From: Prorocentrum cordatum
Lineage: Eukaryota
Assembly (NCBI GenBank): GCA_963575745.1
Contig: CAUYUJ010000245.1
Span: forward strand, 62,001-116,410
DNA length: 54,410 bases
Direction of reading: 5' to 3'
The notes beneath the pieces are model-generated. The model made no database searches, was not told where the DNA came from, and saw only the letters and a program-made list of their open reading frames with translations. Positions 435 to 44,329 of the stretch are shown piece by piece. The position numbers were made by a program, and so were the translations under genes. Position 1 is the first letter of the stretch. Each line of letters opens with the position of its first letter.

Positions 435-745
435 CGCAACATGAATACTACTCTCCTCTCTCCCCTGATGACGTCCAGAAGATGTCCCGCTCCCTCCGCT
501 CACTGTTCTTTGAAACACAAGATTCCCGGGAATTGGGCTTTCGCTGGGTTTGTGTTCAAACTGGTGCTCCCGCGAACGCGTTGGCCTCATTTTCGGGCTT
601 CCGCTGGTTCCGAATCGTGCTCCCGCTGCAGCGTTGGTCTCATTTCCGCGCTTCCGCTTGTTCCGAATCGTGCTCCTGCTGCAGGCCTCATTCTGCGCTT
701 CCGCTCGTTCCGAATCGTGCTCCCGCTGCAGCGCTGGCGTCATTG
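435..745 (+). repeat. Dispersed repeat with ~53-bp tandem subunits (second copy ~34000-34320)
   Basis: ttccgaatcgtgctcc(c/t)gctgcag recurs at 608, 661 and 708. The same subunits and the upstream atgaatacta..tcccctgatgacg segment recur at 34008-34320. Confidence 0.85.
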
Positions 746-1630: not shown

Positions 1631-3566
1631 GATGTCCCCCCCTCGGTCGCCGCCGAGACGACGGAGAGCATGCAGACGAGAATGGCATGCAGACAAGAGT
1701 AGACGGGGGGCGGCATTGCAGCCACTGCCGAGACAGCAGTCCCGCTTCCATCAGATGCCGAGGGCAGGTGCAGGAAGTCCCCTTTTTCGGATCGTAAGTG
1801 CATGTAGGACCAAGGTGTGTTCCTGGAGGTGCGTTGTCAAAAAGAGTTGCTTACTTGGAGCTCCACGGGCTTGCACGGAACGAGATCCTAGAGGCCACAG
1901 CCAGTCACTTTGGGACCCGAGTGAAAACCCCTTTTTGCGAGCATTGGTTTGGGGGACACGGCGCAGGTTCGTCAATCATGTGTGGGACAAGGGAGTTGAT
2001 TCGAAGGAAGAGTCACGGGAGGGACAGCACACAAACATTGAGAAGTGCCATGACGCAATATTTATACCGTTGGGGTTGTTCTTCCGGTACTAACGTTGGT
2101 GCAGCAAGGTTGCAGTGGTTGAGCGTACCAATTCACCTTTATACATCGTTCATTGATTCCTTGTATAGTTTGCCTCTGCTGTTTGAGTTTCTGCCCTTCC
2201 AAATTGTTTTGATCAAACTCATGAAGCTAACAAAGTCAGCACGGAGAGAAGGGCATGCCACATTTCGACAGTCAGAGAAGTGTCTTCGAACGCACATGGT
2301 GCACACGCTGGCTCCCTTATGCCAGGGACGTGGCACGGACAACGCGGCCTGCGGTACGAGCTCAAACTACTGGTGTTGCCGCCAGTGTGTGGATGATCAC
2401 GGATGCAAAGGCTGGAGTGGGAGTTGGGGGTGTTGCTCGTGCAGAGACATGATTGTGGAGTCGTTGGACAGCATCGGGCGGGTTGCGAGTGTGCAGCAAC
2501 ATACAAGCATGATGCAACGGGGGATGTCATGGTGGACAGGTTGCCAACGATAGATACGTTGTGACGGAGGCGGTCCCGTGGAGCAGACTCAAGCGTGGCG
2601 TGTTCCCTAGTCGGCGCAAAAATGTTAGACGCTTCGCGTAACCCCACCAGCTGCCTCGGACCCCCCTCTCGGCGACAGCTTCACGCGTCTGCCCGCGACC
2701 GAAAAAGTAACCCCACCAGCCCATCCAGAAACGGTGCCCAGAGGAAGTGCCTCGATCAGGGAAGTGGGCAACACAGAGGAAGGGTCCCCCAGTGGAGGCC
2801 TCTTGGAGCGTCTTGGGGGCCTCTTGGCGGTCCCGGACGCCTCTTAGAGCGTGTTGGGTGCCTCGGAGAGCGTCTTGGGTCCTCCTGGGGGTCTCTTGGG
2901 GGCCTCTTGGAAGCCTCTGGGGCGCCTGTTGGGGCCTCCTGGGGCCTCCTGGGCGCCTCTTGGGGCCCTCCTGAAGCGCTCTTGGGAGCCTTGGGAGCGC
3001 TCTTGGAGCCCCCTTGGACCATCTTGGAGTCATCTTGTAGCCTCGAATGGCCATCGGAAGCGAAAAGGCTAGAAAGCCCAAAACATTGAGTTTCCTGAGG
3101 TTTGGGAAGAATTCTGGCCTCTTCGGAGCCTCCTGGGGGAGCTCTTTGGCCACTTGGAGCCGTCTTGAAGCGGTCTTGGGGCCTCTTGGAGCATCGTGGG
3201 AGCCATCTTGAGGCATCTTGGGATATCTTGAGCCATCTTGGAGGTCATCTTGGGCTCCCCCAGGCGCTCTTGGAGTCATCTGAAGCAGACCCCCCCCCAG
3301 CAGCCCCAAATGTGGCCAAAACCGTGCTAAAATCAATGAGTTTGGCGGTCTCGCCGAGGCCTCTTGGAGCGTCTCGGGTGTTTCTGGGGGGCCTTTGGGG
3401 GCCTCTTGGGGAGCTCTTGGGAGCCCCTTGGGGGCATCCTTGGGGCCTCTTGAAGGCTTCTTGGGGCCACATGCGGCCATCTTGGGGCCATCTCGGGGCC
3501 TCCTGGGGCTTTCTGGGCGCCTCTTGGGGCCATCTTGGAGGAGATCGGTCATAGGACGGGGAGGGC

Positions 3567-4681
3567 TAAATCCGTAAGGGCTTCGCCCCCTGCCGCCGGC
3601 CCCCTCTCTCGGAGAATGGGCCATGGAAGAGCTAAGTCATGAGGCTTTGGCGCTGTCGTGCAGCAGTATCGGAACTTCATGCGAGGCTGATTCGCAATCG
3701 GCAAAACCAATTGATCACAAGAGGGGTTACCACACAGGGCGATTGGTAAGACGTGTATAGTTTACGAGCTTGGTTACCACACCTTGGGATTAAAGGGCCG
3801 AGGGAGTATTCGCAGTTTGGGTTACCACGCCTTGCGATGAATGTGCGTGAGGGGTGGCACCGAATTTCAGAAATGTAGCAAATCCCCTGTGCTTTTGGAC
3901 CCTGACCCCGCGGATCTGCGTGAGGGGTGGCACCGAATTTCAGAAATGTGGCAAATCCCATGTGTTTTTGGACCCTGACCCCGCGGATCTGCGTGAGGGG
4001 TGGCACCGAATTTCAGAAATGTGGCAAATCCCCTGTGTTTTTGGACCCTGACCCCGCGGATCTGCGTGAGGGGTGGCACCGAATTTCAGAAATGTGGCAA
4101 ATCCCATGTGTTTTTGGACCCTGACCCCGCGGATCTGCGTGAGGGGTGGCACCGAATTTCAGAAATGTGGCAAATCCCTGTGTTTTTGGACCCTGACCCC
4201 GCGGATCTGCGTGAGGGGTGGCACCGAATTTCAGAAATGTGGCAAATCCCATGTGTTTTTGGACCCTGACCCCGCGGATCTGCGTGAGGGGTGGCACCGA
4301 ATTTCAGAAATGTGGCAAATCCCCTGTGTTTTTGGACCCTGACCCCGCGGATCTGCGTGAGGGGTGGCACCGACTTTCAGAAATGTGGCAAATCCCATGT
4401 GTTTTTGGACCCTGACCCCGCGGATCTGCGTGAGGGGTGTCGATTTCGAGCCCCCCAGCAATTCAGACAACGCGCCCAGGTGAGGCTAAAAGTCTTGTTT
4501 GGGCCTCCCCCCCCTCGCGCGGTCAATCAACTAGTTACAGTAACCAGCAAGAAGTCAACTAGTTACAGTAACCAGCAAGAAGCAGAACTGTAACACTGGA
4601 AACTACAACCTACGACTGGTACAGGAAACTGCGAATCACGCGCCTCGCAGCCTGGTGGCCCCACAAGGGGGCCGGCGGATT
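3567..4681 (-). mobile_element. Complete non-autonomous Helentron-like element (family A2) containing the 73-bp array
   Basis: Perfect 12-bp subterminal inverted repeats ccgccggccccc (3592-3603) and gggggccggcgg (4667-4678). Hairpin gggc-ttc-gccc (3577-3587) lies outside the left subTIR. A partial IR (ggcccc-acaag-ggggcc) overlaps the right subTIR. Ends are aaat / ggatt. Confidence 0.7.
3845..4438. repeat. 73-bp tandem array, ~8 copies, near-identical
   Basis: Unit gcgtgaggggtggcaccgaatttcagaaatgtggcaaatccc(a/c)tgtgtttttggaccctgaccccgcggatct; repeated ORF starts at 3854, 3927, 4000, 4073. Confidence 0.97.
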
Positions 4682-4954
4682 AGCCTCCCCCCTCAGGAGG
4701 CCAAAATGGGGCCAAATCCATAGTAAAACCAATGAGTTTGGCTTCCTAGCCGAGGCCGTTTTGGACGCTCCAACGCGACGCGGTACCCCCCGTCGAGGTC
4801 CAGGGGAGGGGGTAGGGGGAGGGGTCAAGACCCCCTCCCCGTCCGTCTCGCTCACTCCCACCCGCCCCCCCAACACAAACGCAGCACCCGAGCCTGGCCC
4901 GAGCCGCAGCATATTCAGCAGTCGTCTTTGGATGGGCAGCTACTGGGGGCGAAT

Positions 4955-5187
4955 CCGCCGCCGCCTCCGCCGCCGCCGCCGCCGCCCGCCGCCGCCGCCG
5001 CCGCCGCCGCTGTCCGCCGCCGCCGCCGCCACCGCGCCGCCCGCCGCCGCCGCCGCCGCCCCCGCTGCCGAATCGCCGCCGCCGCAGCCGCTGCCGCCGC
5101 AGCCGCTGCCGCCACGGCTGCCGCCGCCGTCGTCGCCACCGCCGCCGCCGCCGCCGCCCCCGCCGCCGCAGCCGCCGCCGCCGCCGT
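4955..5187. repeat. (GCC)n microsatellite
   Basis: Imperfect GCC triplet tract. Confidence 0.95.
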
Positions 5188-6033
5188 CAAGTGGATTCTG
5201 CATTGTTTTTGTTGACAGGGATTGTAGGGGGAGACCGCGTCGGGTTCGCTGCGCATGCTCCGCATGTGGAGGCAGAGTGTGTTTTGAAGTGTTTTGTGTA
5301 TAAGGGGTGGTGGGGGGGGGGCCCTCATTGGCTCGGGTTGGCTTCCAGTCGCCTGGGCGAGGGGGTGTATATTGATAGGGAACAATGAGAATCCCTTTCC
5401 CGAAGAAACGCCCTAAACCCCCTACGCCCAGAGGGCTGGTGGGATTACTAGGTGTGTCGCTGGTGTAGTTATGATGCGACAACCATCACAATGCAGGGCA
5501 CGCGTGACAGATGTTGCACCATACTGTCTTCCAACGAGCCCCCCAAAGCAAATAACCGCAACGACTGCATGCATGCGAATAGCGATTGCTTGGGCTAGAT
5601 GAAAAAGACCATTAGTATCAACGCATGTTGGGCCCTGGTGGCGAACGCCAGCCTTCTTTGTGCCATTGCAACCGCTTCCAAGTTACACAACGTTCTTGGC
5701 GTTTGCACGCAAGTGTGTATACGCTCCTGCGTGTCGCTCGGTCTTCGGCTTATACCAGTCTTGTACATGTACATGTTATTCCCCCCCCCCACCCCGTGGC
5801 ACGGGAATAGAGGTCTGCATGACGCATAGAAGAGTCATGCAAGAGTCGTGTTTCAGGTAGCCGTATGGTGCATCTTGCTAGCACAGACGTGTCGTCACCG
5901 ATTCTCTTCATATCGGCAGTGTGTAGTCATTGCTTGCCGTTTGTCGCTCGGGCACACTCCCCTCTGTCTAGACTTCATTGCTGGTGTTTTTCCCTCCCTC
6001 GCTGCCCCTCCTGCAACTCACCATGCTTCCCCT

Positions 6034-11029: not shown

Positions 11030-13850
11030 AGGGAAGTCCCACCAGCTCATCCAGACGCAGATCGCCTGGCGAGTTGCTTTGATCAGGGAAGTGCAGAAGC
11101 ATGCAGTGTAACAACTGCCTTGGAAGTGTTTTCTCGGAGGTCTCTTGGAGCCATCCTGTGTGTCTCTTTTGGGGTCCACTCCTAGGGCCCTATTGGTGCT
11201 CTTTTGGGGGGGTCCAGGGGCCCTCTTGGCGCTCGTTGGGAGGGGGGGGTGAGGCATCTGGAGGCAACCTGGGGCACACTGTTAAAAAAGAGGGAGGGGG
11301 TCCTCAATTCAGATCCCCCCCCCTCGGAGGCTCACAAATGGCGTCTTGGGGCCGTCTTGGGGCGCTCATTGGGCGCTCTTGTGCGCCCCTGGGGCCCCCT
11401 TGGGGCCCTCTTAGGCCCCTCTTGGGGCTCTCTTGGGCCGTCTTGGGGCCATCGTACGCCCTCAAGAGCCCATCGGAAGCGAAAAGGCGAGAAGTCAAGA
11501 AACAGTGAGATCCCCTTGGCTTACGAGCCATTTTGGCTTCTTGGGTGGTCCTTGAAGGGCTCGGAGGGCACTAGAAACCGTCTTGGGGCCGTTGGGCCAT
11601 CTGCGAGGACATCGTGGGCTCTCTGAGACCCTCTTGGAGCCATCTTGGGACGACATCTTGGGGGTTTAGCGCCTCGCGCCCCCCCCCCGCTCCCAGTCCG
11701 CATCAAGCTACCCACCGGCCCGCAAGCCGTCTAGCTCACTCCCACCCGCCCTCCCAACACATAAGTAAAACCCGAGCCTGAGCATGTTCAACGGTCGTCT
11801 TTGGATGGGCAGCTACCAGGAACCAAAGCCGACCCCAGGTACGCGACGTTTGGGCGAGGTGCGCCACGCGTGCCAGGGGCGCCATGCGCGCCAGGCACCC
11901 CTGGGGCCCGAGCGTGCCAGGCACTCCTGGTGCGCCAGATGCGCCACGTGCTCCGAGTGCGCCAGGTGTGCCGTACACTCCAGCCGCTCCAGGTGCGCCA
12001 CATTAGGGGCACGTGCAGAGTGTGCGCCTGCGCACGTGACAGCACATATCGGGAAACATGTCGGCCCCCGCCATCCGCTTCGAAAACCAGTGCCCATCAT
12101 TGTGTCTGGTGGGCCTGCGCACAGCAGGCCACGCGACACCACCCCCGCCGTCCCTGTCAAAAACCACTTGACGGTGATCGCGGGATGGCCGCGCATGATC
12201 CAGATTTAGCCGAGAGGTGTATGCCTTTTTTGTCAGGGGTGGTAGCCCTGCGCACAACAGAATATGCTGACACCCCCGCCGTCCCCATCCCTGTCAAAAA
12301 GAATAAAAGTGATCGCGGGCTTCACCAACATGACCCAAGACTTTGCCCCAGGGTGTACTTCGCATTGTTTTTGACAGGGATGGTGGGGGGGGCGCACCGG
12401 GTTGGCCGCGCATGCTTCAAATGTGGAGGCAGAGTGCGAATTGTATTGCTTTTTGACGGATGGTGGGAAGCGAGCCTGCATGGAGTTGGCATGGTTCGTG
12501 GTTGGCCGCCAGCCGGGTGGGGGAGGGGGTGTACATTGATACGGAACAGTGATCAAGCTACTCACCCGCCCGCAAGCCGTCTTGCTCACTTCCACCCGCC
12601 CTCCCAACATATGAGTAACACCCGGGCGTCAGCATATCGCGTAAGAACGCCGCAGAAGCCACGGGTTCCAGATGCACCAGATACCCCTGGAGGCACAAGC
12701 GTGCCAGGCGCGCCAGGTGCGGCACGTGCTCCGCGTGCGCCCAGTGGTCCACGTGCTCCGTCCGCGATAGGGGCTCCACTTGCGTGCGCCGCAACTGCTG
12801 CTACGCCAGCAATTGCGCACGCCCCAGCGCGTGCTTGTGACTGCTGGCCACCGCGCGCGTGGGGCGTTCTTCGGGCCGGTTTGGAAGCCTCTTGGTCCCG
12901 GCTTGGAGCGTTCCTGCCCGATTTGGGAGCCACTTGGAGGCTTCGAAAATCCATCGGAAACGAAATGGAGAGAAGGCAGCAGCCATTGATTTGTCAAAGC
13001 AGTCGGTCGACCACATGTGCCCAGAAGGCAGGTGGGATCTGCTGGCACCCCGGCCGTCCTTGTAGAAAACCAATACAAAGTGGTCGCGGAGCGGCCGCGC
13101 ATGCTCCAAATGTGAAGGCAGAGTGTGTTTAGTATTGTTTCTGACAGCGATGGTGGCGGGGGTGATCATGGGGTCGGCATTGTTCCGGGTTGGCTGCCGG
13201 CCGGGTGGGGGAGGGGGTGTATAGATATATAGATATATGTTCCCCAATCAGAGCTTGCCTCTGTAGGGGTCCTAGCGGATTCATATGTTTAGGTGAGGTG
13301 CGGCGCTGATTTGATGGCCGGCGGCCGGGTGCCCGAGGGTGCCCAGAGGTGCCCGGGTGCCCGATTTCAGTGGCCGGGCCCGGGTGCCCGAGGGGCCCAG
13401 GTGCCCGGGGGTGCCCAGGGGTGCCCGGGTGTCCGGGTGCCCGTGTGCCCGGGTGCCTGGGTGCAGGTCCAGGTGCCCAGTAGCTCTATATAGCCCTATA
13501 GATCTGTAGCCCTATAGCCCCAATAGCCCTATAGCCTTATAGCCTTATAGCCATATAGCCCTATAGCCCTACAGCCCCATAACCCCATAGCCCAATAGCC
13601 CTATAGCCCTATAGCCCTATTGCCCTGTAGCCCTGTAGCCCTATAGCCCCGTAGCCTTCTCGCCCTATAGCCTTATAGCCCCATAGCCTTAAAGCCTCAA
13701 AAAGATTATGATTGGGATTTTTCTCCGGTCTCATATTTATACATGGAACAGTGATGAACCCATCCCCCGAACAGGGGAATGAGGGGTTTTCGCAGAGCTG
13801 ACAGAGAGAAGGCCAGAATCCGTCAAACCACCCACGCCCAGAGGGCGGGT
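11030..13850 (-). mobile_element. Degenerate family A element with duplicated internal modules
   Basis: cccaccagct..gatcagggaagtg at 11038-11093; ggcctcttgggg arrays; ctcactcccacccgccc and gcatgctcc..gtggaggcagagtg modules shared with 4845-5390; degenerate end acgcccagagggc at ~13834. Confidence 0.5.
13322..13692. repeat. Adjacent short-period arrays (gggtgccc)n and (tagcccta)n
   Basis: 9-10-bp gggtgccc repeats at 13322-13480; 8-bp tagcccta repeats at 13488-13692. Confidence 0.9.
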
Positions 13851-19344: not shown

Positions 19345-20592
19345 GCCAGGGCAGTGTATGTTGATGTGTCTGTGTGTGTCTGCGTCTGTGCTTGTGTCTC
19401 TGTGTCTCTGTGTCTCTGTGTCTGTGTCTCTGTGGTGTTGCTGTTGCGTCTCTGTCGTGTCTCTGTGGTGTCTCTGTGGTGCCTCTGTTGTGTATATGTG
19501 GTGTCTCTGTGGTGTCATTGTGATGTTTCAGTGGTGTCTCGGTGGTGTCTCGGTGTGTGTGTGTGTGTGCATGTGCGTGTGCGTGTGCGTGTGCGTGTGC
19601 GTGCGCGTGCGCGTGCGCGTGCGCGTGCGCGTGCGCGTGCGCGTGCGCGTGCGCGTGCGCGTGCGCGTGCGCGTGCGCGTGCGCGTGCGCGTGGGCATGG
19701 GCGTGGGCGTGGGCGTGGGCGGGGGCGGGGGCGCGGGGCGGGGGCGGGGGCGGGGCGTGGGCGTGGGCGTGGGCGTGGGCGTGTGCGTGTGCGTGTGCGC
19801 GTGCGTGTGCGCGTGCGTATGTGTGTGTGTGTGTATGTGTGTGCGCGCGCGTGTGCGTGCGCGTGCGCGTGCGTGTGCGTGTGCGCGTGCGCGTGCCCGT
19901 GCGTGTGCCTGTGCGTGTGCGTGTGCGTTTGCGTGTGCCTGTGCGTGTGCGTGTGCGTGTACGGGTGCGGGTGCGGGTGCGTGTGCGTGCATTTGCGTGT
20001 GCGCGTGCGCGTGCGTGTGCGTGCGTGCGTGTGTGCGTGCGTATGCGGGGTGTGTGCGTGCGTGCGTTCGTGCGTGTGCGTGCGTGCGTGTGTGTGTATG
20101 TATGCGTTGGTGTGTGCGTGCATGAGCGTGGGCGTGGACGTGGGTGTGGGTGTGAGTGTGAATGTATATATGTGTGGTGCGTGCGTGCGTGCGTGCGTCG
20201 AGCTTGCGCGCGCGTTTATGTGTAAGCGTGCGGGTGTTTGTGTGTGTTCGCGTACGTGTGCGCGTGTGTGCGTGTGTGCGTATGTGTGCGTGTGTGTATG
20301 TGTGTCTGTGTATGTGTCTATGTCTGTGTATGTGTCTGTGCCTGTGTCTGTGCCTGTGTGTACGTGTGTGTGTGTGAAATGTGTGAGTGTCGGTGTGTGT
20401 GTGTGGGTGTGTGGGTGTGTGGGGGTGTGTGGGGGTGTGTGGGTGTGTGTGGGTGTGTGTGTGTGGGTGTGTGGGTGTGTGGGGGTGTGTGGGTGTGTGT
20501 GGGTGTGTGTGGGTGTGTGTGGGTGTGTGTGGGTGTGTGTGTGTGTGTGGGTGTGGGTGTGGGTGTGGGTGTGTGTGTGTGGGTGCGTGTGC

Positions 20593-20624
<32 letters not shown>

Positions 20625-20652
20625 GTGTGCGTGTGTGTGTGTGTGTGTGTGT
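19345..20652. repeat. Compound (TG)n/(CGTG)n/(GCGCGT)n/(GGGTGT)n microsatellite
   Basis: ~1.3 kb of mostly alternating purine-pyrimidine repeats. Confidence 0.97.
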
Positions 20653-21132
20653 TCGTTCGTTCTCCCGCCTAATGCGGGACGCCGTATCTTCACACCGTCT
20701 CAACCCAAACCACGCGCCAAGGCAAACGATGCAAGCGGCGGTGGGTGAGGGGGAAGTACGTGGGTGGGGCACGGTCCGCTGTGCAGCCACCCAACACCAA
20801 AATACGCACCCCGCACGCCTCTCTTGAAAGCACCCAACCGCCAGGACCAGCCCCTTCCCCGCACTGGTGGAGCCAACCTACGCACAAACACACGCGACGC
20901 AAGACAACCACGGAGCTGCAGCCGGCGCTGCATGCAACCCATGCTGTGTGCGCGCTGTCTCGGCGTGGAAAGCTGTCAGTCGGTTCCGGGTGGCGTGATG
21001 GGGCGCACCTGCACCGCGCGACTCCGCACAAGGCTCACGAGAGCATGTGGGAACGCTGGTGGGTGAGAGCGCGTGTTTGAGCCACCCATGTGTGTATGTG
21101 TGTGCACCAGGAGGCACCCATGGATACGAGTT

Positions 21133-21850
21133 CGTGTGTGTGTGTGTGTGCGTGTGTGCGTGTGTGCGTGTGTGCGTGTGTGCGTGTGTGCGTGTGTGCG
21201 TGTGCGTGTGCGTGTGCGTGTGCGTGTGCGTGTGCGTGTGTTGTGTTGTGTTGTGTTGTGTTGTGTTGTGTTGTGTTGTGTTGTGTTGTGTTGTGTTGTG
21301 TTGTGTGGTGTGGTGTGGTGTGGTGTGGTGTGGTGTGGTGTGGTGTGGTGTGGTGTGGTGTGGTGTGGTGCGGTGGTGTGGCGTGGCGTGGCGTGGCGTG
21401 GCGTGGNNNNNNNNNNNNNNNNNNNNNNNNNNNNNNNNNNNNNNNNNNNNNNNNNNNNNNNNNNNNNNNNNNNNNNNNNNNNNNNNNNNNNNNNNNNNNN
21501 NNNNNNGTGCGTGGGTGTGGGTGTGGGTGTGGGTGTGGGGGTGTGGGGGTGTGGGGGTGTGGGGGTGTGGGGGTGTGGGGGTGTGGGGGTGTGGGGGTGT
21601 GGGGGTGTGGGGGTGTACGTGTGCGTGTGCGTGTGCGTGTGTGTGTGTGTGTGTTCGCCTGTGTGTGCGTGTCTTTGGCTGTGTCTGTGTCCGTGTCTGT
21701 GTGTGCGTGTGTGTGTGTGCATGTGGTTGTGGCTGTGGCTGTGGTTGTGGCTGTGTCTGTGTCTGTGTCTATGTGTGTTTGTGTGTGTGTGCGGTCGTGT
21801 TCTGTGCGTGTGTGTTTGTGTCTGTGTCTGTGTGGGTGTGGGTGTGGGTG
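21133..21850. repeat. Compound TG-rich microsatellite spanning a 100-N assembly gap (21407-21506)
   Basis: (TG)n, (GTGTT)n, (GTGTG)n and (GGGGTGTG)n tracts around the N run. Confidence 0.95.
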
Positions 21851-21899
21851 TAGGGAGGAGGAGACAGCGTGGCGGAGGGGAAGGGGGGACCATCACAGG

Positions 21900-22430
21900 C
21901 TAATGAGGAAGGCTAAGGTTAGGCCGACCCGACCCTAACCGAAACCTTAAGGTTACATCCGCTCACCACTTACGCTCACATGTATCCTGCCTCGCCGCTC
22001 CCTCCTTGAGGAGCTGGGCAGCAGGAAAGGGCAGGGCAAGTCGGGGGCGGGCCTTCATACTGCTCTTGGGATGTCGGCCGCCTGACAGAAGAGACCACGC
22101 ACCTTGGGAGAACTTGCTTCGGAAGCGCTCCTTACATTCACCTTTGAGCCCTTTGAGGTTGCTTTCCGTATATCGGCCGCACCTCTTGCACACTACAATG
22201 AAGGACTCAATATCAAGGTAATCACATATCATAAGTTGGTGCTTCTGGGGGTCTCTAATTAATTGTGAGAGAGTCGCCGAGTTGCCTGGGCACGGCTCCG
22301 CCGTGCGGGCTTTCTTGGTGGCGTCGGATCTAGCTTTAGTATGGCATAGCAGGCACAGCCAGTGACCGTTCAACCAGCCCCAAGTGTGCCTACTGGCATT
22401 GTCGCGTGCTCTCGCACGCCTGGGACCCGC
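21900..22430 (-). pseudogene. 3'-terminal remnant of a non-LTR retrotransposon (Cys/His C-terminal domain + short 3' UTR)
   Basis: Translation HTWGWLNGHWLCLLC...PC...HQL...VVCKRCG...LKGLKGEC...GRHPK parallels the C-terminus of the 27970-30726 ORF (WRCKRC...HC...HQM...FCSLC...LRGLEKRC...GLHPR). Confidence 0.7.
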
Positions 22431-30998: not shown

Positions 30999-31105
30999 TG
31001 TCCGCTCATGTTGAAAGGGTTTGCCGAGGCCCTGGAGGACCCCTTGGTGTGCACTAGGCTCAGCGACCTTGCAGACATGTAAGGAGCTCCGGCACACAGA
31101 CTCTC

Positions 31106-31140
31106 AATCCCACCAGCCCTCTGGGCGTTGGTGGTTTCCT
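31106..31140 (+). mobile_element. Family A terminus abutting the 77-bp array
   Basis: aatcccaccagccctctgggcgt is the exact reverse complement of 5424-5446. Confidence 0.75.
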
Positions 31141-33078
31141 CGCTCAGGCGGGGCCTCCCTGAAGGGGTGGGAGGGGCACGAAACCGTGTAAAGAGTATGG
31201 TTTTCCGATACCCTCCTCGCTCAGGCGGGGCCTCCCTGGAGAGGTGGGAGGGGCACGAAACCATGTAAATAGTATGGTTTTCGAATACCCTCCTCGCTCA
31301 GGCGGGGCCTCCCTGCAGGGGTGGGAGGGGCACGAAACCATGTAAATAGTATGGTTTTCGGATACCCTCCTCGCTCAGGCGGGGCCTCCCTGGAGTTGTG
31401 GGAGGGGCACGAAACCATGTAAATAGTATGGTTTGCGGATACCCTCCTCGCTCAGGCGGGGCCTCCCTGGAGAGGTGGGAGGGGCACGAAACCATGTAAA
31501 TAGTATGGTTTGCGGATACCCTCCTCGCTCAGGCGGGGCCTCCCTGGAGGTGTGGGAGTGGCACGAAACCATGTAAATAGTATGGTTTGCGGATACCCTC
31601 CTCGCTCAGGCGGGGCCTCCCTGCAGGGGTGGGAGGGGCACGAAACCATGTAAAATAGTATGGTTATTCGGATACCCTCACCTCTCAGGCGGGGCCTCCT
31701 TGGAGGGGTGGGGGGGGCACGAAACCATGTAAATAGTATGGTTTGCGGATACCTCCTCGCTCAGGCGGGGCCTCCCTGGAGGTGTGGGAGGGGCACGAAA
31801 CCATGTAAATAGTATGGTTTTCCGATACCCTCCTCGCTCAGGCTGGGCCTCCCTGGAGGGGTGGGAGGGGCACGAAACCATGTAAATAGTATGGTTTTCC
31901 GATACCCTCCTCGCTCAGGCGGGGCCTCCCTGGAGGTGTGGGAAGGGGCACGAAACCATGTAAATAGTATGGTTTTCGGATACCCTCCTCGCTCAGGCGG
32001 GGCCTCCCTGGAGGGGTGGGAGGGGCACGAAACCATGTAAATAATATGGTTTTCGGATACCCTCCTCGCTCAGGCGGGGCCTCCCTGCAGGGGTGGGAGG
32101 GGCACGAAACCATGTAAATAGTATGGTTTTCGGATACCCTCCTCGCTCAGGCGGGGCCTCCCTGGAGGGGTGGGAGGGGCACGAAACCATGTAAATATTA
32201 TGGTTTTCCGGTACCATCCTCGCTCAGGCGGGGCCTCCCTGCAGGGGTGGGAGGGGCACGAAACCATGTAAATAGTATGGTTTTCGGATACCCTCCTCGC
32301 TCAGGCGGGGCCTCCCTGGAAGGGTGGGAGGGGCACGAAACCATGTAAATAGTATGGTTTTCCGATACCCTCCTCGCTCAGGCGGGGCCTCCCTGGAGGG
32401 GTGGGCGGGGCACGAAACCATGTAAATAGTATGTTTTTCGGATACCCTCCTCGCTCAGGCGGGGCCTCCCTGGAGGGGTGGGAGGGGCACGAAACCATGT
32501 GAATAGTATGGTTTTCCGATACCCTCCTCGCTCAGACGGGGCCTCCCTGGAGGCGTGGGAGGGGCACGAAACCATGTAAATAGCATGGTTTTCGGATACC
32601 CTCCTCGCTCAGGCGGGGCCTCCCTGGAGGGGTGGGAGGGGCACGAAACCATGTAAATAGTATGGTGTTCGGATACCCTCCGGCCCCCCACTCTTGGTCT
32701 AGCCTGAGCGACTCGCGGCATCCGGCGGTGGGAAGCCCTTCCCTGGAGTGTGGGAGGAGGCATAGCGGGAAAAAAAAAGCATGTAAACTAATAGTGGGGT
32801 ATTACCGCGATACCCACAAATCGTCGGCCTTCGCAGGCAGACCCTTGAGCCCTCGCATCACTCCGCTGGAAGGGGTGGGCGAGGCAGTGTGAGGGCCAGG
32901 CACGAAACCATGTAAATAGTATGGTTTTCCGATACCCTCCTCGCTCATGCGGGGCCTCCCTGGAGGTGTGGGAGGGGCACGAAACCATGTAAATAGTATG
33001 GTATTCCGATACCCTCCTCGCTCAGGCGGGGCCTCCCTGGAGGTGTGGGAGGGGCACGAAACCATGTAAATAGTATGG
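31136..33078. repeat. 77-bp tandem array, ~20 contiguous copies plus a degenerate stretch and ~2 more copies
   Basis: Unit ccctcctcgctcaggcggggcctccctggaggggtgggaggggcacgaaaccatgtaaatagtatggttttcggata; ORF coordinates step by 77 (31144, 31221, 31298...). Confidence 0.98.
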
Positions 33079-33499
33079 TATGATATGGTATGGTATTGTA
33101 CTGGAGGTATGTATGGTATGTACGTGTGGATTGGTGTGATATGGGTATGGTATGCTATGGTACGCCATGGTATGGTCATTTGGTAGCATAGTAATAGCTC
33201 CACTGTTATGGTATGGTAATGTGTGGTAGGAACTTATGATGGTATGGTATGGTGTGTGTGGTAGGAATAATATTGTGCTGTATGGGAGATGGAGCGGGAG
33301 GTGGGTGGGAAGGAGAGGGTGTTCTGGGAAAACAAGAACCCCACTCAGGATGTGGGGAATAAATTTGATGGCCTCCCCTCCCCTTTCTGACCAGTGCCGC
33401 GCGTTCCGTCCCAGGCCCTGGTAAGTCCCTCCCCCTGGAGGGCACTCCATATAGTAGCTGCCCGCGCCTCGGATCTCCCGTCGCGCCAGGTGGTGCGCG

Positions 33500-34978
33500 C
33501 CTCCTCCTCCTCCTCCTCCTCCTCCTCCTCCTCCTCCTCCACTCCTCCTCCTCCTCCTCCTGCTCCGCCTGCTCCTTCCTCCCCCTCCCCCTCAGGCTCC
33601 TCCTTCCTCCTCCTCCTCCTCCTCCTCCTCCTCCTTCCTCCTCCTCCTCTGCTCCTGCTGCGCTGCTCCTCCTCCTCCTGCTCCTCTCCTCTCCTCTCCT
33701 CCCCCTCCTCCGTCCTCCTCCTCCTCCTCCTCCTCCTCCTCCTCCTCCCTAGCCCTTCCTACTTCTCCTCCTCCCTCCCCCTCCCCCTCCCCCTCCTCCA
33801 ACTCCCCTCCTCCTCCTCCTCCTCTCCTCCTCCTCCTCTACTCCTCGCTCCCCTGCTCCTCCTCCTCCTCCTCCTCCTCCTCCTCCTCCTCCTCCCCTCC
33901 TCCTCCATCCTCCTCCTCCTCCTCCTCCTCCTCCTCCCCCTCATCCTCATCCTCATCCTCATCCTCATCCCCATCCTCTCCCTCCGCCTCCTCCACAATT
34001 TTTCAATATGAATACTATTCTCTTCTTCCTTCCCCTGATGACGGCCTGGGAGTGTTCGACCCCCCCCGCGTATTGTTTTTTTACACAGGTTTCCCCAGAG
34101 TTGGGTGTTCGCTTGCATTTGTTTCAAAATGCTGCTCTCGCTGAGGCGCCGGCCTCATTTTCGGGCCCCGCTCGTTCCGCATCGTGCTCCCGCTGCAGCG
34201 CTGGCCTCATTTCCGTGCTTCCGCTCGTTCCGAATCGTGTTCCCGCTGCAGCGTTGGCCTCGTTTCCGCGCTTCCGCTCGTTTCGATTTCTGCTCCCGCT
34301 GCAGCGCTGGCGTCATTTCCCGTGCTATGCCACGGCATGCCTTGCAATGCTAGGTTGGTGCTACGCTTTGCAGTGCTCTTCTACGCCATGCCATGCTGTG
34401 CTCTACAACATCGCGTACCCATCATTGCCCTGCTCGACATCCGACTGAGCGAGTAGAGAGGGGATCTGCGCCATGGTAAGGGATGTGAGGGAGGGGTAGG
34501 ATGTCCGATATGACGCGAGCGCACCTAGCTTGTCCCCCTCCTCCTCCTCCTCCTCCTCCTCCTCCTCCTCCTCCTCCTCCTCCTCCTCCTCCTCCTGCCT
34601 CCTCCTCTCCTCCTCCTCCTCCTCCTCCTCCCGCCTCCTCCCCTCCTCCTCCTCCTCCCCCCCTCCTCCTCCTCCTCCTCCTCCTCCTCCTCCTCCTCCT
34701 CCTCCTCCTCCTCCTCCTCCTCCCTCCTCCTCCTCACTCCTCACCTCCCACCTCCTCCTCCTCCTTCTCCTCCTCCTCTCTTCTCCTCCTCCCCCCTCCT
34801 CCTCCTCCTCTCCTCCGTCCTCCTCCTCCTCCTCCTCCTCCTCCTCCCCTCCTCCTCCTCCTCCTCCTCCTCCTCCTCCCTCCTCCTCCTCCTCCTCCTC
34901 CTCCTCCTCCTTCCTCCTCCTCCTACTCCTCCTTCCTCCTCCTCCTCACTCCTCCTCCTCCTCCTCCTCCTCCCACCC
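33500..34978. repeat. Two (CCT)n tracts (33500-33995, 34536-34978) flanking the 53-bp-unit dispersed repeat
   Basis: Direct reading. Confidence 0.93.
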
Positions 34979-43004: not shown

Positions 43005-44025
43005 AATCTCACTGGCCCTCTGGGCGTCGGTGGTTTAGGGCGTTTCCTCTTCCACCCCTCCCTCTTCCCCTTCGGAGAAGCGTTTACCTCTCCCCTTTAC
43101 CCCCACCACTCTGACGTGGACAGGAGGGGCGGGGAGCGGTTAGAGCCTCCAAAATGGCCCAGGACGGTTCCAAGAGGGCCTCAGAGAGCCCAAGATTGCC
43201 TCCAAAATGGCTCCAACACGTTCCAAGACCGCTCCAAGATGGTTCCAAGTGCCCACAAGAGCATCATTATAGTGCCCTCAAAATGCCGAAATACTTCAAA
43301 CCCTAGGGAAAATCAATGTTTTTGGTGTTCTCACTTTTTCGCTTCCGAAGCCCGTCCGAGGCCTCGATAGCGCCAAGATGTCCCAACTGGGCCCCAACAG
43401 GGGCCCAAGAGAGCCTCAAGACTGCCTCAGCAGCGTCCAAGAGCGCTCCAAGAGCGATCCGAGAAGGGTCCAGGAAAGGATTTTAAACAGTCTGGAGGGG
43501 CAACGCTAATTAAAGCTCTGCTCTTCTTTGATAGATTTGCTCCAAGATGCCCCCCCAGAGCGCCCCGATGGCGTCTAAAAGGACCCCAGACGCCCAAACA
43601 CTGCTTCAATTCATACTCCCCTCTTGTTTGATCGATCTCTTCCAGGCCCCAAGAAGTGCCCAAGAGGTCCCAAGATGGCCCCAAGAAGCCCCCAACATGC
43701 CCCCAAGATGCCCCCAACAGACCCCCAAGAGGCCCCAAGAGACCCCGCAAAGGCACACAAGATGCTCCAAGAGGCCTCGGCGAAAATGCCAAATCATTGA
43801 TTTCACTAAGGTTTTAGCCACATGTTGGCCTCTTGGGGGGAGCACTGATTAAGATGACTCCAAGAGCGCCTGGGAGAGCCCAAGATGACCTCCAAGATGG
43901 CTCAACATATCCCAACATGTATCATAATAGCTTCCGCTGTGTGCTGCCCACTTCCCTGATCCAGGCAATTCCTCTGGGCATCGTTTCTGGATGGGCTGGT
44001 GGGGATTCGCGACGCGTCAACAATT
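43005..44025 (+). mobile_element. Full-length family A element (~1.0 kb)
   Basis: Starts aatctcactggccctctgggcgt; ends gatgggctggtggggattcgcgacgcgtcaacaatt; internal ccccaagaggcc arrays are the reverse complement of 2790-3540. Confidence 0.7.
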
Positions 44026-44329
44026 GCGTATAAAACATGATTTCAAACTTCCGATTGAAGGTTGCATGGGAAAAATCAGAATCATCCCGCATCGTCGACC
44101 TCTCCCTCCCCCTCCTTCCTTTTAGTATGCATTTGGCGAAACAGACGCATGATTGCATGCGTTTGGCATGTTCTGTGCCGTTCTGCGCGCGTTCGAGGCG
44201 CCGTGCCGAAGGTTGGCGCATGGCTTCTGTGTGTCAATGTACACCAGAATCTGCCGGCCTTTTCAGCGGCGCGGGGGCAATCGGGTTGAGCTCCCATACC
44301 AATTAACCAAATAATTGCAGTAGAATACG

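What the first reader, a model, noticed from the sequence alone, without database searches (positions are those of the whole stretch)
3567..4681. Complete rolling-circle-type (Helentron/DINE-1-like) non-autonomous element with a GCGAAGC mini-hairpin terminus and an internal satellite
Seen: on the minus strand the element reads 5'-AAT-CCGCCGGCCCCC-(partial IR)...73-bp array...GGGGGCCGGCGG-cagg-GGGC-GAA-GCCC-ttacggATTT-3'. It has asymmetric perfect 12-bp subTIRs, a terminal hairpin and no evident target-site duplication. Established: asymmetric subTIRs, a 3' hairpin, TT insertion and central tandem repeats define Helentron-associated elements such as DINE-1; d(GCGAAGC) is an exceptionally stable single-stranded DNA mini-hairpin. 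Inference: this is a non-autonomous element mobilised through an ssDNA intermediate by a Rep/helicase encoded elsewhere. I do not know of a description in this lineage but cannot check.
Basis: partly seen in the sequence, partly recalled or inferred. Interest (0 to 1): 0.78.

Follow-up and report, generated by a model that had tools for sequence, protein, structure and literature searches.

The report
Small Helitron2-type transposon carrying a satellite
This 1.1-kb stretch is a complete, non-coding copy of a very abundant family of rolling-circle-type (Helitron2-like) jumping genes of marine dinoflagellate-like genomes; it carries a short satellite and sits inside another such element, so it is a real but fairly ordinary member of a known kind.

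Summary
Window 3571-4679 (minus strand) is one complete non-coding element. It has a 13-bp perfect inverted repeat that is terminal at the 5' end and 21-23 nt internal at the 3' end. It also has a 5' hairpin, a GGGC-GAA-GCCC hairpin after the 3' repeat, and a 73-bp x 8.2 array.

Inside the window these end features are no better than chance. The proof comes from outside. Seventeen of these carry the exact partner repeat 345-1568 bp away. All have the same 5' hairpin and box, unrelated interiors and different flanks. Public run contigs skip the element at this site.

The architecture meets the three terminal criteria of Helitron2 (Bao and Jurka 2013) and the satellite-carrying layout of HINE/DINE-1. 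No Rep-helicase partner was found, so the mechanism is inferred. An invariant AT on both sides leaves three readings open: A|T insertion, T|T insertion or a 2-bp duplication.

The copy lies at the apex of a palindrome inside a second, 2.8-kb element with the same end design.

Earlier notes of this scan describe the same element type on other DNA of this genome. Verdict: new member of a known kind, modest interest.

The parts
3571..4679 (-). Element E, complete non-autonomous copy (1109 bp if it runs from T to A between a flanking A and T; the core without either AT is 3572-4678)
   Evidence: Similarity to metagenome copies starts at 3567-3578 and stops at 4680-4682. Run contigs skip about 3551/3561 to 4679. 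ORFs of 100 aa or more inside it have no Pfam match.
4666..4678 (-). 5' asymmetric terminal inverted repeat, CCGCCGGCCCCCT
   Evidence: Perfect 13-bp pairing with 3593-3605. The first 11 nt are invariant in 17 of 17 aligned 5' ends.
4657..4673 (-). 5' hairpin: the 3' half of the repeat (GGCCCC) pairs with GGGGCC downstream, loop CTTGT
   Evidence: All 18 complete copies fold this hairpin. The inner stem pairs differ between copies yet stay complementary.
4643..4656 (-). Conserved box ACCAGGCTGCGAGG just after the 5' hairpin
   Evidence: Nearly invariant columns in the alignment of 17 5' ends.
4527..4582 (.). 28-bp direct repeat, 2 copies, 100% identical
   Evidence: family D7.
3844..4439 (.). 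Internal satellite, 73 bp x 8.2 copies, 98% matches
   Evidence: Run contigs show forms that lack part or most of the array (joints 3754>3903, 3754>4413, 3684>4398).
3724..3838 (.). Three degenerate repeats spaced 47-48 bp apart, upstream of the satellite
   Evidence: family D6, 75-80% identity.
3593..3605 (-). 3' asymmetric inverted repeat, AGGGGGCCGGCGG, 21-23 nt from the 3' end
   Evidence: Same position in 18 of 18 complete copies.
3578..3592 (-). Spacer CAGG (3589-3592) and mini-hairpin GGGC-GAA-GCCC (3578-3588), which contains GCGAAGC
   Evidence: The spacer is CAGG in 64 of 98 distinct 3' ends. The hairpin was part of the search pattern, so its conservation is not measured independently.
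3571..3577 (-). 3' tail TTACGGA, followed by T at 3570
   Evidence: Tails of related copies: TTAGGAT in 21, TTAAAT in 10, TTAAGAT in 9, TTCAGAT in 7, out of 98. TTACGGAT occurs in 3, including this copy.
3558..3570 (+). Left arm of the host palindrome (GGGGAGGGCTAA) plus A, directly beside E
   Evidence: The consensus of related uninterrupted copies comes from run contigs (loose ends behind 3551) and from the paralogue at about 43500-43530.
4680..4692 (+). Right arm of the host palindrome (T, then TAGCCTCCCCCC)
   Evidence: It is the inverted complement of 3558-3569 with one base missing.
2622..2651 (-). 3' end of host element H1. On the + strand it reads AT, tail GTTAGA, hairpin CGC-TTC-GCG, then repeat TAACCCCACCAGC
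   Evidence: The same layout is at about 44005-44030 on the other strand.
5435..5447 (-). 5' inverted repeat of host element H1 (GCTGGTGGGATTA on the + strand); 12 of 13 positions are complementary to 2639-2651
   Evidence: The same 5' end motif lies at 31105-31130 on the + strand, before the 77-bp array.

Best explanation
Window 3571-4679 (minus strand) is a complete, non-coding, non-autonomous transposon with Helitron2-type ends. It belongs to a very high-copy group found in this genome and in marine metagenomes.

Shown: conserved asymmetric ends, unrelated interiors that often hold tandem arrays, different flanks at each copy, and related host copies without the insert.

Inferred:
1. A Rep-helicase (HUH Y2 plus Pif1-like) encoded elsewhere nicks the minus strand at A|T just before TCCGCC.
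2. It unwinds 5' to 3'.
3. It is told where to stop by the 3' repeat plus the GCGAAGC mini-hairpin. Pairing of the two repeats may open the 5' hairpin at that point, as Bao and Jurka proposed.
4. It nicks again after ...TTACGGA and moves the strand into a new A|T.

This copy landed at the AT-rich apex of a GC-clamped palindrome inside an older element of the same design. The internal 73-bp array is passenger DNA that the element spreads.
For: Ends:
- A 13-bp perfect repeat lies 0-1 nt from the 5' end and 21-23 nt from the 3' end. The 5' repeat forms a hairpin with downstream bases. The 3' repeat is followed by a spacer of mostly 4 nt (3-5) and a hairpin.
- This matches the Helitron2 definition read in PMC3627910.

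Family:
I judged 105 by eye to be family members and 15 to be chance hits in GC-rich contigs.
- Seventeen contigs hold the exact partner repeat 345-1568 bp downstream. Near-exact partners are in L016/L069, L042 and L065.
- All 18 complete copies, the window's included, have the 5' hairpin. The box ACCAGGCTGCG is near-invariant in the 17 aligned 5' ends.
- Interiors are unrelated. Fifteen of 19 complete copies have tandem repeats, and 10 have arrays scoring 100 or more, each with a different unit.

Mobility:
- Flanks differ between copies.
- Contigs of runs X1, X2 and X3 join about 3551/3561 to 4679/4687, skipping the element. X6 contigs begin matching at 3570 with unlike flanks.
- A paralogue of the host repeat at about 43520 is uninterrupted.

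Copy number and coding:
- 42965 contigs of X1 were laid on the 1751-base stretch, flanking repeats included.
- No Pfam family matches ORFs within E.

Comparable elements: HINE/DINE-1 and Cg_HINE. GAA-loop hairpins occur in the Helitron2 ends of Fusarium.
Against: - No Rep, Helitron_like_N or PIF1 domain was found. I scanned 212 of the 305 window ORFs of 100 aa or more; the other 93 were low-complexity and dropped. I also scanned 42 of 124 ORFs from the longer metagenome loci.
- No autonomous copy with these ends was seen, so the link to a RepHel rests on architecture only.
- An AT stands on both sides in 18 of 18 complete copies. This could be a 2-bp target duplication, which Helitrons are not expected to make.
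- Two attempts at an empty site were equivocal: the L073 satellite units and the host paralogue.
- The hairpin's fold energy is no better than shuffles.
- The conservation of the hairpin is biased, because it was part of my search pattern.
- Metagenome contigs can be chimeric at shared repeats. Some loci share a flank yet differ in their interior.
Confidence: 0.78

Rival explanations
1. A miniature DDE-type (cut-and-paste) transposon that makes a fixed 2-bp AT target-site duplication. On this reading the extra 3' hairpin is a family-specific appendage.
For: AT is present on both sides in 18 of 18 complete copies. An 11-13-bp inverted repeat is shared by all copies.
Against: - The 3' repeat is 21-23 nt inside the end in 18 of 18 copies, and the outer tail has no counterpart at the 5' end. 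DDE elements carry their repeats at both tips.
- The duplicated-looking dinucleotide is AT, not the TA of Tc1/mariner (that comparison is recalled). The base before the 5' AT is A in 12 and T in 6 of 18 copies.
- No DDE transposase was found in the window or the loci.
Confidence: 0.07
2. A mobile element moved through single-stranded DNA by a nuclease that is not a Helitron RepHel. Examples would be another HUH enzyme or a so far undescribed one. The Helitron2-like ends would then be convergent.
For: No RepHel was linked to these ends here. The flanking dinucleotide (AT at both ends) differs from the T-rich/TT sites reported for Helitron2 and Helentrons.
Against: All three terminal criteria of Helitron2 are met. 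A Helitron2-like RepHel exists in a dinoflagellate. No eukaryotic HUH transposon other than Helitrons is known to me (recalled).
Confidence: 0.12
3. Not a separate mobile unit: only a segment of the larger repeat (host element H1 or its higher-order satellite) that happens to contain an inverted repeat.
For: The flanks are themselves repeated (3291-3361 against 4687-4757, 80% identity). The end features are not above chance within the window.
Against: The same ends bound 17 contigs with unrelated flanks. Related host copies lack the insert. Copies of the same subfamily (L033, L065, L085) lie in other flanks.
Confidence: 0.03

Closest known systems
[quoted passage not shown]
   Same: - Short asymmetric terminal inverted repeats.
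- The 5' repeat lies 0-2 bp from the end and forms a 5' hairpin with downstream bases.
- The 3' repeat lies 20-30 bp from the end, just upstream of a hairpin.
- Small non-coding derivatives a few hundred bp long.
   Different: - No RepHel partner is shown here.
- The flanking dinucleotide is AT on both sides. The paper reports a 5' T preference.
- This copy has an internal satellite.
- The host is a dinoflagellate-like genome.
HINE / DINE-1 (non-autonomous Helentrons; Thomas et al. 2014, PMC4067079, passages read) and the oyster Cg_HINE (PMC7492417, passages read)
   Same: - Inverted repeats of 11-15 bp, with an IR complementary to the 5' repeat and a 3' palindrome.
- Central tandem arrays.
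- Related ends that carry unrelated satellites.
- Very high copy number.
   Different: - Those elements insert in TT and T-rich DNA. They derive from Helentrons that carry an endonuclease domain.
- Neither point is shown here.
- The 3' distance here (21-23 nt) is shorter than the 38-60 bp of the mite HINEs.
FoHeli1/FoHeli2 of Fusarium oxysporum (Helitron2-like; PMC5148889, passages read)
   Same: Asymmetric repeats that are part of hairpins, stems closed by a GAA loop, and a site that includes an AT (TNAT|T).
   Different: - Those are autonomous 5-6 kb elements whose joined ends were shown by experiment.
[quoted passage not shown]
- Here the GAA hairpin is at the 3' end.
Helitron2-like RepHel element of Symbiodinium microadriaticum (Heringer and Kuhn 2021, PMC8788227; passages read)
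   Same: The only dinoflagellate Helitron2-like element I found in print. It is a plausible relative of the missing autonomous partner.
   Different: The passages I read do not give its termini.
Earlier notes of this scan on other pieces of the same genome (e1-7627319, e1-7694971, e1-7625408, e1-7694655, e1-7694658)
   Same: The same end design (AT, CCGCC-type repeat, subterminal repeat, small hairpin, AT), satellite cargo, and nesting at hairpins of resident copies.
   Different: These are AI notes on other DNA. This report adds this copy, its host element and the metagenome survey.

Membership tests
Helitron2 group (Bao and Jurka 2013) | [quoted passage not shown] | tested here: met
   A 13-bp perfect repeat, 0-1 nt from the 5' end. 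The same holds in 18 of 18 complete copies.
Helitron2 group (Bao and Jurka 2013) | The 5' repeat pairs with downstream nucleotides to form a 5' hairpin | tested here: met
   GGCCCC/GGGGCC with loop CTTGT at 4657-4673. The hairpin is present in 18 of 18 copies, with stem extensions that differ yet stay complementary.
Helitron2 group (Bao and Jurka 2013) | The 3' repeat lies about 20-30 bp from the 3' end, immediately upstream of a hairpin | tested here: met
   Repeat, then spacer CAGG, an 11-nt hairpin and a 6-8-nt tail, giving 21-23 nt.
Helitron2 group (Bao and Jurka 2013) | No target-site duplication as a rule; the element starts with T | tested here: inconclusive
   AT flanks both ends in 18 of 18 copies. 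That fits T...A ends set in A|T, or a 2-bp duplication. The empty-site comparisons were equivocal.
Helitron2 group (Bao and Jurka 2013) | An autonomous relative with the same ends encodes a RepHel that groups in the Helitron2 clade | tested here: inconclusive
   No Rep or helicase domain was found in 212 window ORFs or in 42 locus ORFs. The whole genome is not held.
HINE / DINE-1 (Helentron-associated) | Subterminal inverted repeats of 12-15 bp plus a short palindrome near the 3' end | tested here: met
   compared with the passages.
HINE / DINE-1 (Helentron-associated) | Central tandem repeats or a microsatellite | tested here: met
   A 73-bp x 8.2 array. Fifteen of 19 complete copies hold tandem repeats.
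HINE / DINE-1 (Helentron-associated) | Insertion within a TT dinucleotide, with T runs at the boundaries | tested here: inconclusive
   The flanks read ...WAT|CCGCC and ...GGAT|N. A T|T reading is possible only if the A before the 5' T is a target preference. No T runs were seen.
HINE / DINE-1 (Helentron-associated) | Derived from a Helentron whose Rep-helicase carries an AP endonuclease domain | not testable with these tools
   No autonomous partner is available in the data held.
DDE terminal-inverted-repeat transposons (MITE-like) | Inverted repeats at both extreme termini | tested here: not met
   The 3' repeat is 21-23 nt internal in 18 of 18 copies.
DDE terminal-inverted-repeat transposons (MITE-like) | Target-site duplication of fixed length | tested here: inconclusive
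   The invariant AT on both sides could be a 2-bp duplication.

The most novel reading that the evidence does not exclude
The enzyme that moves this family may pick its targets by DNA shape. It would integrate at an A|T exposed in the AT-rich apex of GC-clamped hairpins and at the nick sites beside the end hairpins of resident elements. That implies integration into extruded or single-stranded hairpin DNA, a target rule not described for Helitrons.

Support so far:
- This copy sits at the apex of a 26-bp host palindrome that is conserved in the host family.
- Twenty of 98 distinct 3' ends abut, through a single shared AT, a CCGCCG-type motif followed in many by a short palindrome; I read this motif as the end of a related element.
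- Earlier notes of this scan report the same nesting.
Probability: 0.25. Interest if true: 0.6.

Novelty: new member of a known kind. Interest (0 to 1): 0.35.

Why it matters
- It shows that small Helitron2-type elements, not only retroelements, are a major repeat class in this dinoflagellate-like genome and in marine metagenomes.
- It shows that they seed dispersed satellite arrays, as DINE-1 and the oyster HINEs do in animals.
- The sharply conserved 33-nt 3' end and 40-nt 5' end give a simple handle for annotating these repeats. They also help in finding the still unknown autonomous RepHel.
- That RepHel is of interest because a dinoflagellate RepHel was reported to branch below the Helitron2/Helentron split.
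- For this single copy, the practical message is annotation. The interval is a nested transposon, not a gene or a regulatory feature.

Tried and rejected
- **Second copy in the window:** none beyond the 13-bp repeat itself.
- **Rfam:** no family in the window.
- **Fold energies of the ends:** within the shuffles. ViennaRNA did not pick the GAA mini-hairpin as the best fold.
- **Viral-contig scan with the terminus:** 0 hits.
- **Look-up of earlier findings by sequence:** nothing.
- **Pfam for a partner:** nothing in 10 long window ORFs, 212 window ORFs or 42 locus ORFs. Only unrelated low-complexity or host-gene matches appeared (Collagen, Laminin_G_3, Ephrin_rec_like).
- **Empty sites by joining flanks across the 120 loci:** swamped by (TA)n matches. 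The two usable cases could not tell one AT from a T|T site: the L073 satellite units and the host paralogue.
- **Far end of L033 and L002:** not found.
- **Motif GCCATTTTGGC:** a weak excess, 5 matches against 1.8 expected, with 5 of 100 shuffles reaching 5. Not pursued.
- **Considered and dropped:** the GTAAG at the + strand left end and the AG near the right end as splice sites of an intron-forming element. Only this subfamily has the GTAAG, and the copy lies in a repeat, not in an exon.

Full report
**What is there**

The window is GC-rich (about 0.55-0.67 per 2 kb) and full of tandem repeats (109 TRF rows). Read on the minus strand, the interval shows the following order.

- Flank ...GGCTAA, then T at 4679.
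- The 13-nt repeat CCGCCGGCCCCCT at 4678-4666. Its last six bases pair with GGGGCC to form a hairpin at 4673-4657.
- The box ACCAGGCTGCGAGG.
- A perfect 28-bp duplication (4527-4582).
- A 73-bp x 8.2 array (3844-4439, 98% matches).
- Three degenerate repeats spaced 47-48 bp apart.
- The inverted partner AGGGGGCCGGCGG (3605-3593).
- The spacer CAGG.
- The hairpin GGGC-GAA-GCCC (3588-3578).
- The tail TTACGGA, ending at 3571, and then T.

The repeat is 13 bp rather than 12 bp. The 5' repeat is terminal. An AT stands on each side.

**Is it more than chance?**

Not by the window alone.

- The 12-mer with one mismatch occurs 5 times against 2.3 expected.
- The hairpin motif occurs once against 3.3 expected.
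- The folding energies of both ends lie within dinucleotide shuffles.
- There is no second copy in the window.
- The whole genome is not held.

The test therefore had to come from outside.

**Outside copies**

One metagenome scan used the 3' hairpin, a 2-8-nt gap and the repeat. By eye, 15 of these are chance hits in GC-rich, mostly long contigs with other spacers. The other 105 share the further tail and flank design.

In 17 contigs the exact partner repeat lies 345-1568 bp downstream in the expected orientation. Printed in element orientation, all 17 and the window copy begin ...WAT|CCGCCGGCCCC. In the 17 aligned 5' ends the box ACCAGGCTGCG follows with little variation. All end with the repeat, a CAGG-like spacer, the hairpin and a tail of 4-9 nt that ends in AT. 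Near-exact partners are also present in L016/L069, L042 and L065.

The 5' hairpin folds in 18 of 18 copies. Its inner pairs differ between copies yet remain complementary: TC:GA, TG:CA, CT:AG and CC:GG.

Interiors are unrelated between families. L033, L065 and L085 share the first 95-145 nt of this copy's interior at 83-91% identity. L065 is a complete 763-bp relative with a different 42-bp array.

Fifteen of 19 complete copies contain tandem repeats. Ten have arrays scoring 100 or more, each with its own unit.

**Mobility at this site**

Contigs of four public runs were laid at 85% likeness.

- X1 alone gave 42965 laid contigs over the 1751-base stretch. That count includes the flanking repeats.
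- Contigs join 3551 or 3561 to 4679 or 4687, skipping the element, in X1, X2 and X3. The sides are 21-41 nt, and the letters between the sides are not known.
- X6 contigs start matching at 3570 after unlike flanks.
- An X2 contig matches up to 4683 and then runs on unlike.

BLAST to the loci gives the same limits, 3567-3578 and 4680-4682. Some contigs also lack part or most of the array (3754>3903, 3754>4413), so array length varies between copies.

**Surroundings**

The immediate flanks are inverted complements of each other: GGGGAGGGCTAA-A and T-TAGCCTCCCCCC. Related uninterrupted copies read GGGGAGC-TTTAATTAG-GGCTCCC in the run contigs (loose ends behind 3551). The paralogue at about 43520 reads ...GCAGAGCTTTAATTAGCGTTGCCCC.... 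The element therefore sits at the AT-rich apex of a palindrome that belongs to the host repeat.

That host is itself an element of the same design, which I call H1.

- On the + strand at 2622-2651 it reads AT, a 6-nt tail, the hairpin CGC-TTC-GCG and the repeat TAACCCCACCAGC.
- The partner GCTGGTGGGATTA lies at 5435-5447.
- H1 spans about 2623-5444 on the minus strand, E included.
- It contains the TCTTGGGGCC-type arrays that flank E.

A second H copy lies at about 43100-44030 on the other strand. Its hairpin is CGC-GAC-GCG and its tail also ends in AT. An H-type 5' end stands at 31105, before the 77-bp x 20 array.

**What it is**

Bao and Jurka define Helitron2 by three terminal features (passages read).

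- Repeats of 8-15 bp.
- A 5' repeat 0-2 bp from the end that pairs downstream to form a 5' hairpin.
- A 3' repeat 20-30 bp from the end, just upstream of a hairpin.

All three are met here.

Thomas et al. describe the non-autonomous HINE/DINE-1 with 12-15-bp repeats, a 3' palindrome and central repeats. The oyster Cg_HINE add an IR complementary to the 5' repeat, and related ends that carry unrelated satellites. That is the pattern seen here. Fusarium Helitron2-like elements even use GAA-closed stems in their end hairpins.

GCGAAGC fits the GCGNAGC 'mini-hairpin' class called extraordinarily stable in the abstract of PMC13037366 (listing only). It reads so only on the strand that starts with the 5' repeat. 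That fits a strand-specific signal. However, the hairpin was part of my search pattern, so its conservation is not an independent result.

**Mechanism**

This part is inferred.

1. A RepHel encoded elsewhere nicks the top strand at the 5' end and unwinds it.
2. It terminates at the 3' repeat and hairpin. Bao and Jurka suggest that pairing of the two repeats melts the 5' hairpin and sets the endpoint.
3. It inserts the strand at a new site.

The invariant AT at both ends can be read in three ways.

- A CCGCC...GGA element set in T|T with a preferred A upstream.
- A 2-bp duplication.

In 20 of 98 distinct 3' ends, a single shared AT is followed directly by a CCGCCG-type motif, in many followed by a short palindrome, which I take to be the end of a related element. 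This is simplest if the enzyme cuts A|T at resident ends and uses them as targets. A further 24 of 98 flanks are AT-rich.

**What is missing**

No Rep, Helitron_like_N or PIF1 domain was found.

- I scanned 212 of the 305 window ORFs of 100 aa or more. The other 93 were low-complexity and were dropped.
- I scanned 42 of 124 ORFs from the longer loci.
- The viral contig scan was empty.

Membership in Helitron2 in the strict, protein-based sense is therefore untested.

**Novelty**

Three literature searches gave no description of these non-autonomous, satellite-carrying families in dinoflagellates: 'Helitron' with 'dinoflagellate', 'Prorocentrum' with 'transposable element' and 'Helitron', and 'dinoflagellate/satellite/non-autonomous/rolling-circle'.

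One Helitron2-like RepHel of Symbiodinium microadriaticum is reported as branching below the Helitron2/Helentron split. Repbase and Dfam could not be consulted.

Earlier notes of this scan describe the same end design, the satellite cargo and the nesting on other pieces of this genome. One of them names Prorocentrum cordatum. I did not check the organism.

This copy is therefore a new member of a known kind. It is well supported as a mobile element, and it is of modest interest on its own.

Noticed in passing
window 2623-5444 (minus strand): Host element H1 is a second Helitron2-like family. Its repeat is TAACCCCACCAGC / GCTGGTGGGATTA, its 3' hairpin is CGC-GAA-GCG, and its tail ends in AT. 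Its interior is a higher-order repeat built of TCTTGGGGCC-type 11/22-bp arrays and a roughly 70-bp unit (3291-3361 against 4687-4757, 80% identity).
   Followed up: partly
window 43100-44030 (+ strand element): A further H-family copy, with hairpin CGC-GAC-GCG and tail TCAACAAT. It holds an uninterrupted paralogue of E's insertion site near 43500-43530.
   Followed up: partly
window 31105-33081: An H-type 5' end (AATCCCACCAGCCCTCTGGGCG) sits directly before a 77-bp x 20 array (31137-32681). A further 2.4 copies lie at 32899-33081. This is probably another satellite-carrying element. Its 3' end was not found with up to 2 mismatches.
   Followed up: partly
loci L020, L027, L034, L043, L053, L055, L056, L077, L082, L093, L107: The same 3' repeat (GGGGCCGGCGG plus CAGG or CGGG) is followed by a long tail of 103-127 nt. 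The tail ends in a CACGCC...GGCG stem that encloses a short palindrome which differs between loci, and it abuts the short-tailed family tail-to-tail through one shared AT. This is either a long-tailed sister family or a recurrent nesting site.
   Followed up: partly
loci L005, L038, L040, L041, L070: The same 25-60-nt flank and 3' end are joined to different interiors. This could be chimeric elements or an assembly artefact at the shared terminus.
   Followed up: no
window 564-744 and 34133-34326; 927-1632: Two copies of a 53-bp array lie 33 kb apart. A separate 77-bp x 9.2 array lies at 927-1632. Their carrier elements were not examined.
   Followed up: no
window 11527-11537, 43148-43158, 43201-43211, 4700-4710: The motif GCCATTTTGGC and one-mismatch forms occur inside the H-family repeats (5 matches against 1.8 expected). 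From recall it resembles the core of the dinoflagellate spliced leader, and the neighbouring arrays have a 21-22-nt period. This was not tested.
   Followed up: no
runs X1, X2, X3, X6: Runs filed under four different organism or metagenome labels, from four studies, all hold contigs 99% or more alike to this stretch (11024, 791, 344 and 108 contigs). The family, or the organism, is widespread in public marine data.
   Followed up: no
window 19365-21851: About 2.5 kb of GT-rich microsatellite (GTGTGC and GTGTG types) with extreme GC and AT skew (bin 20001-22000).
   Followed up: no
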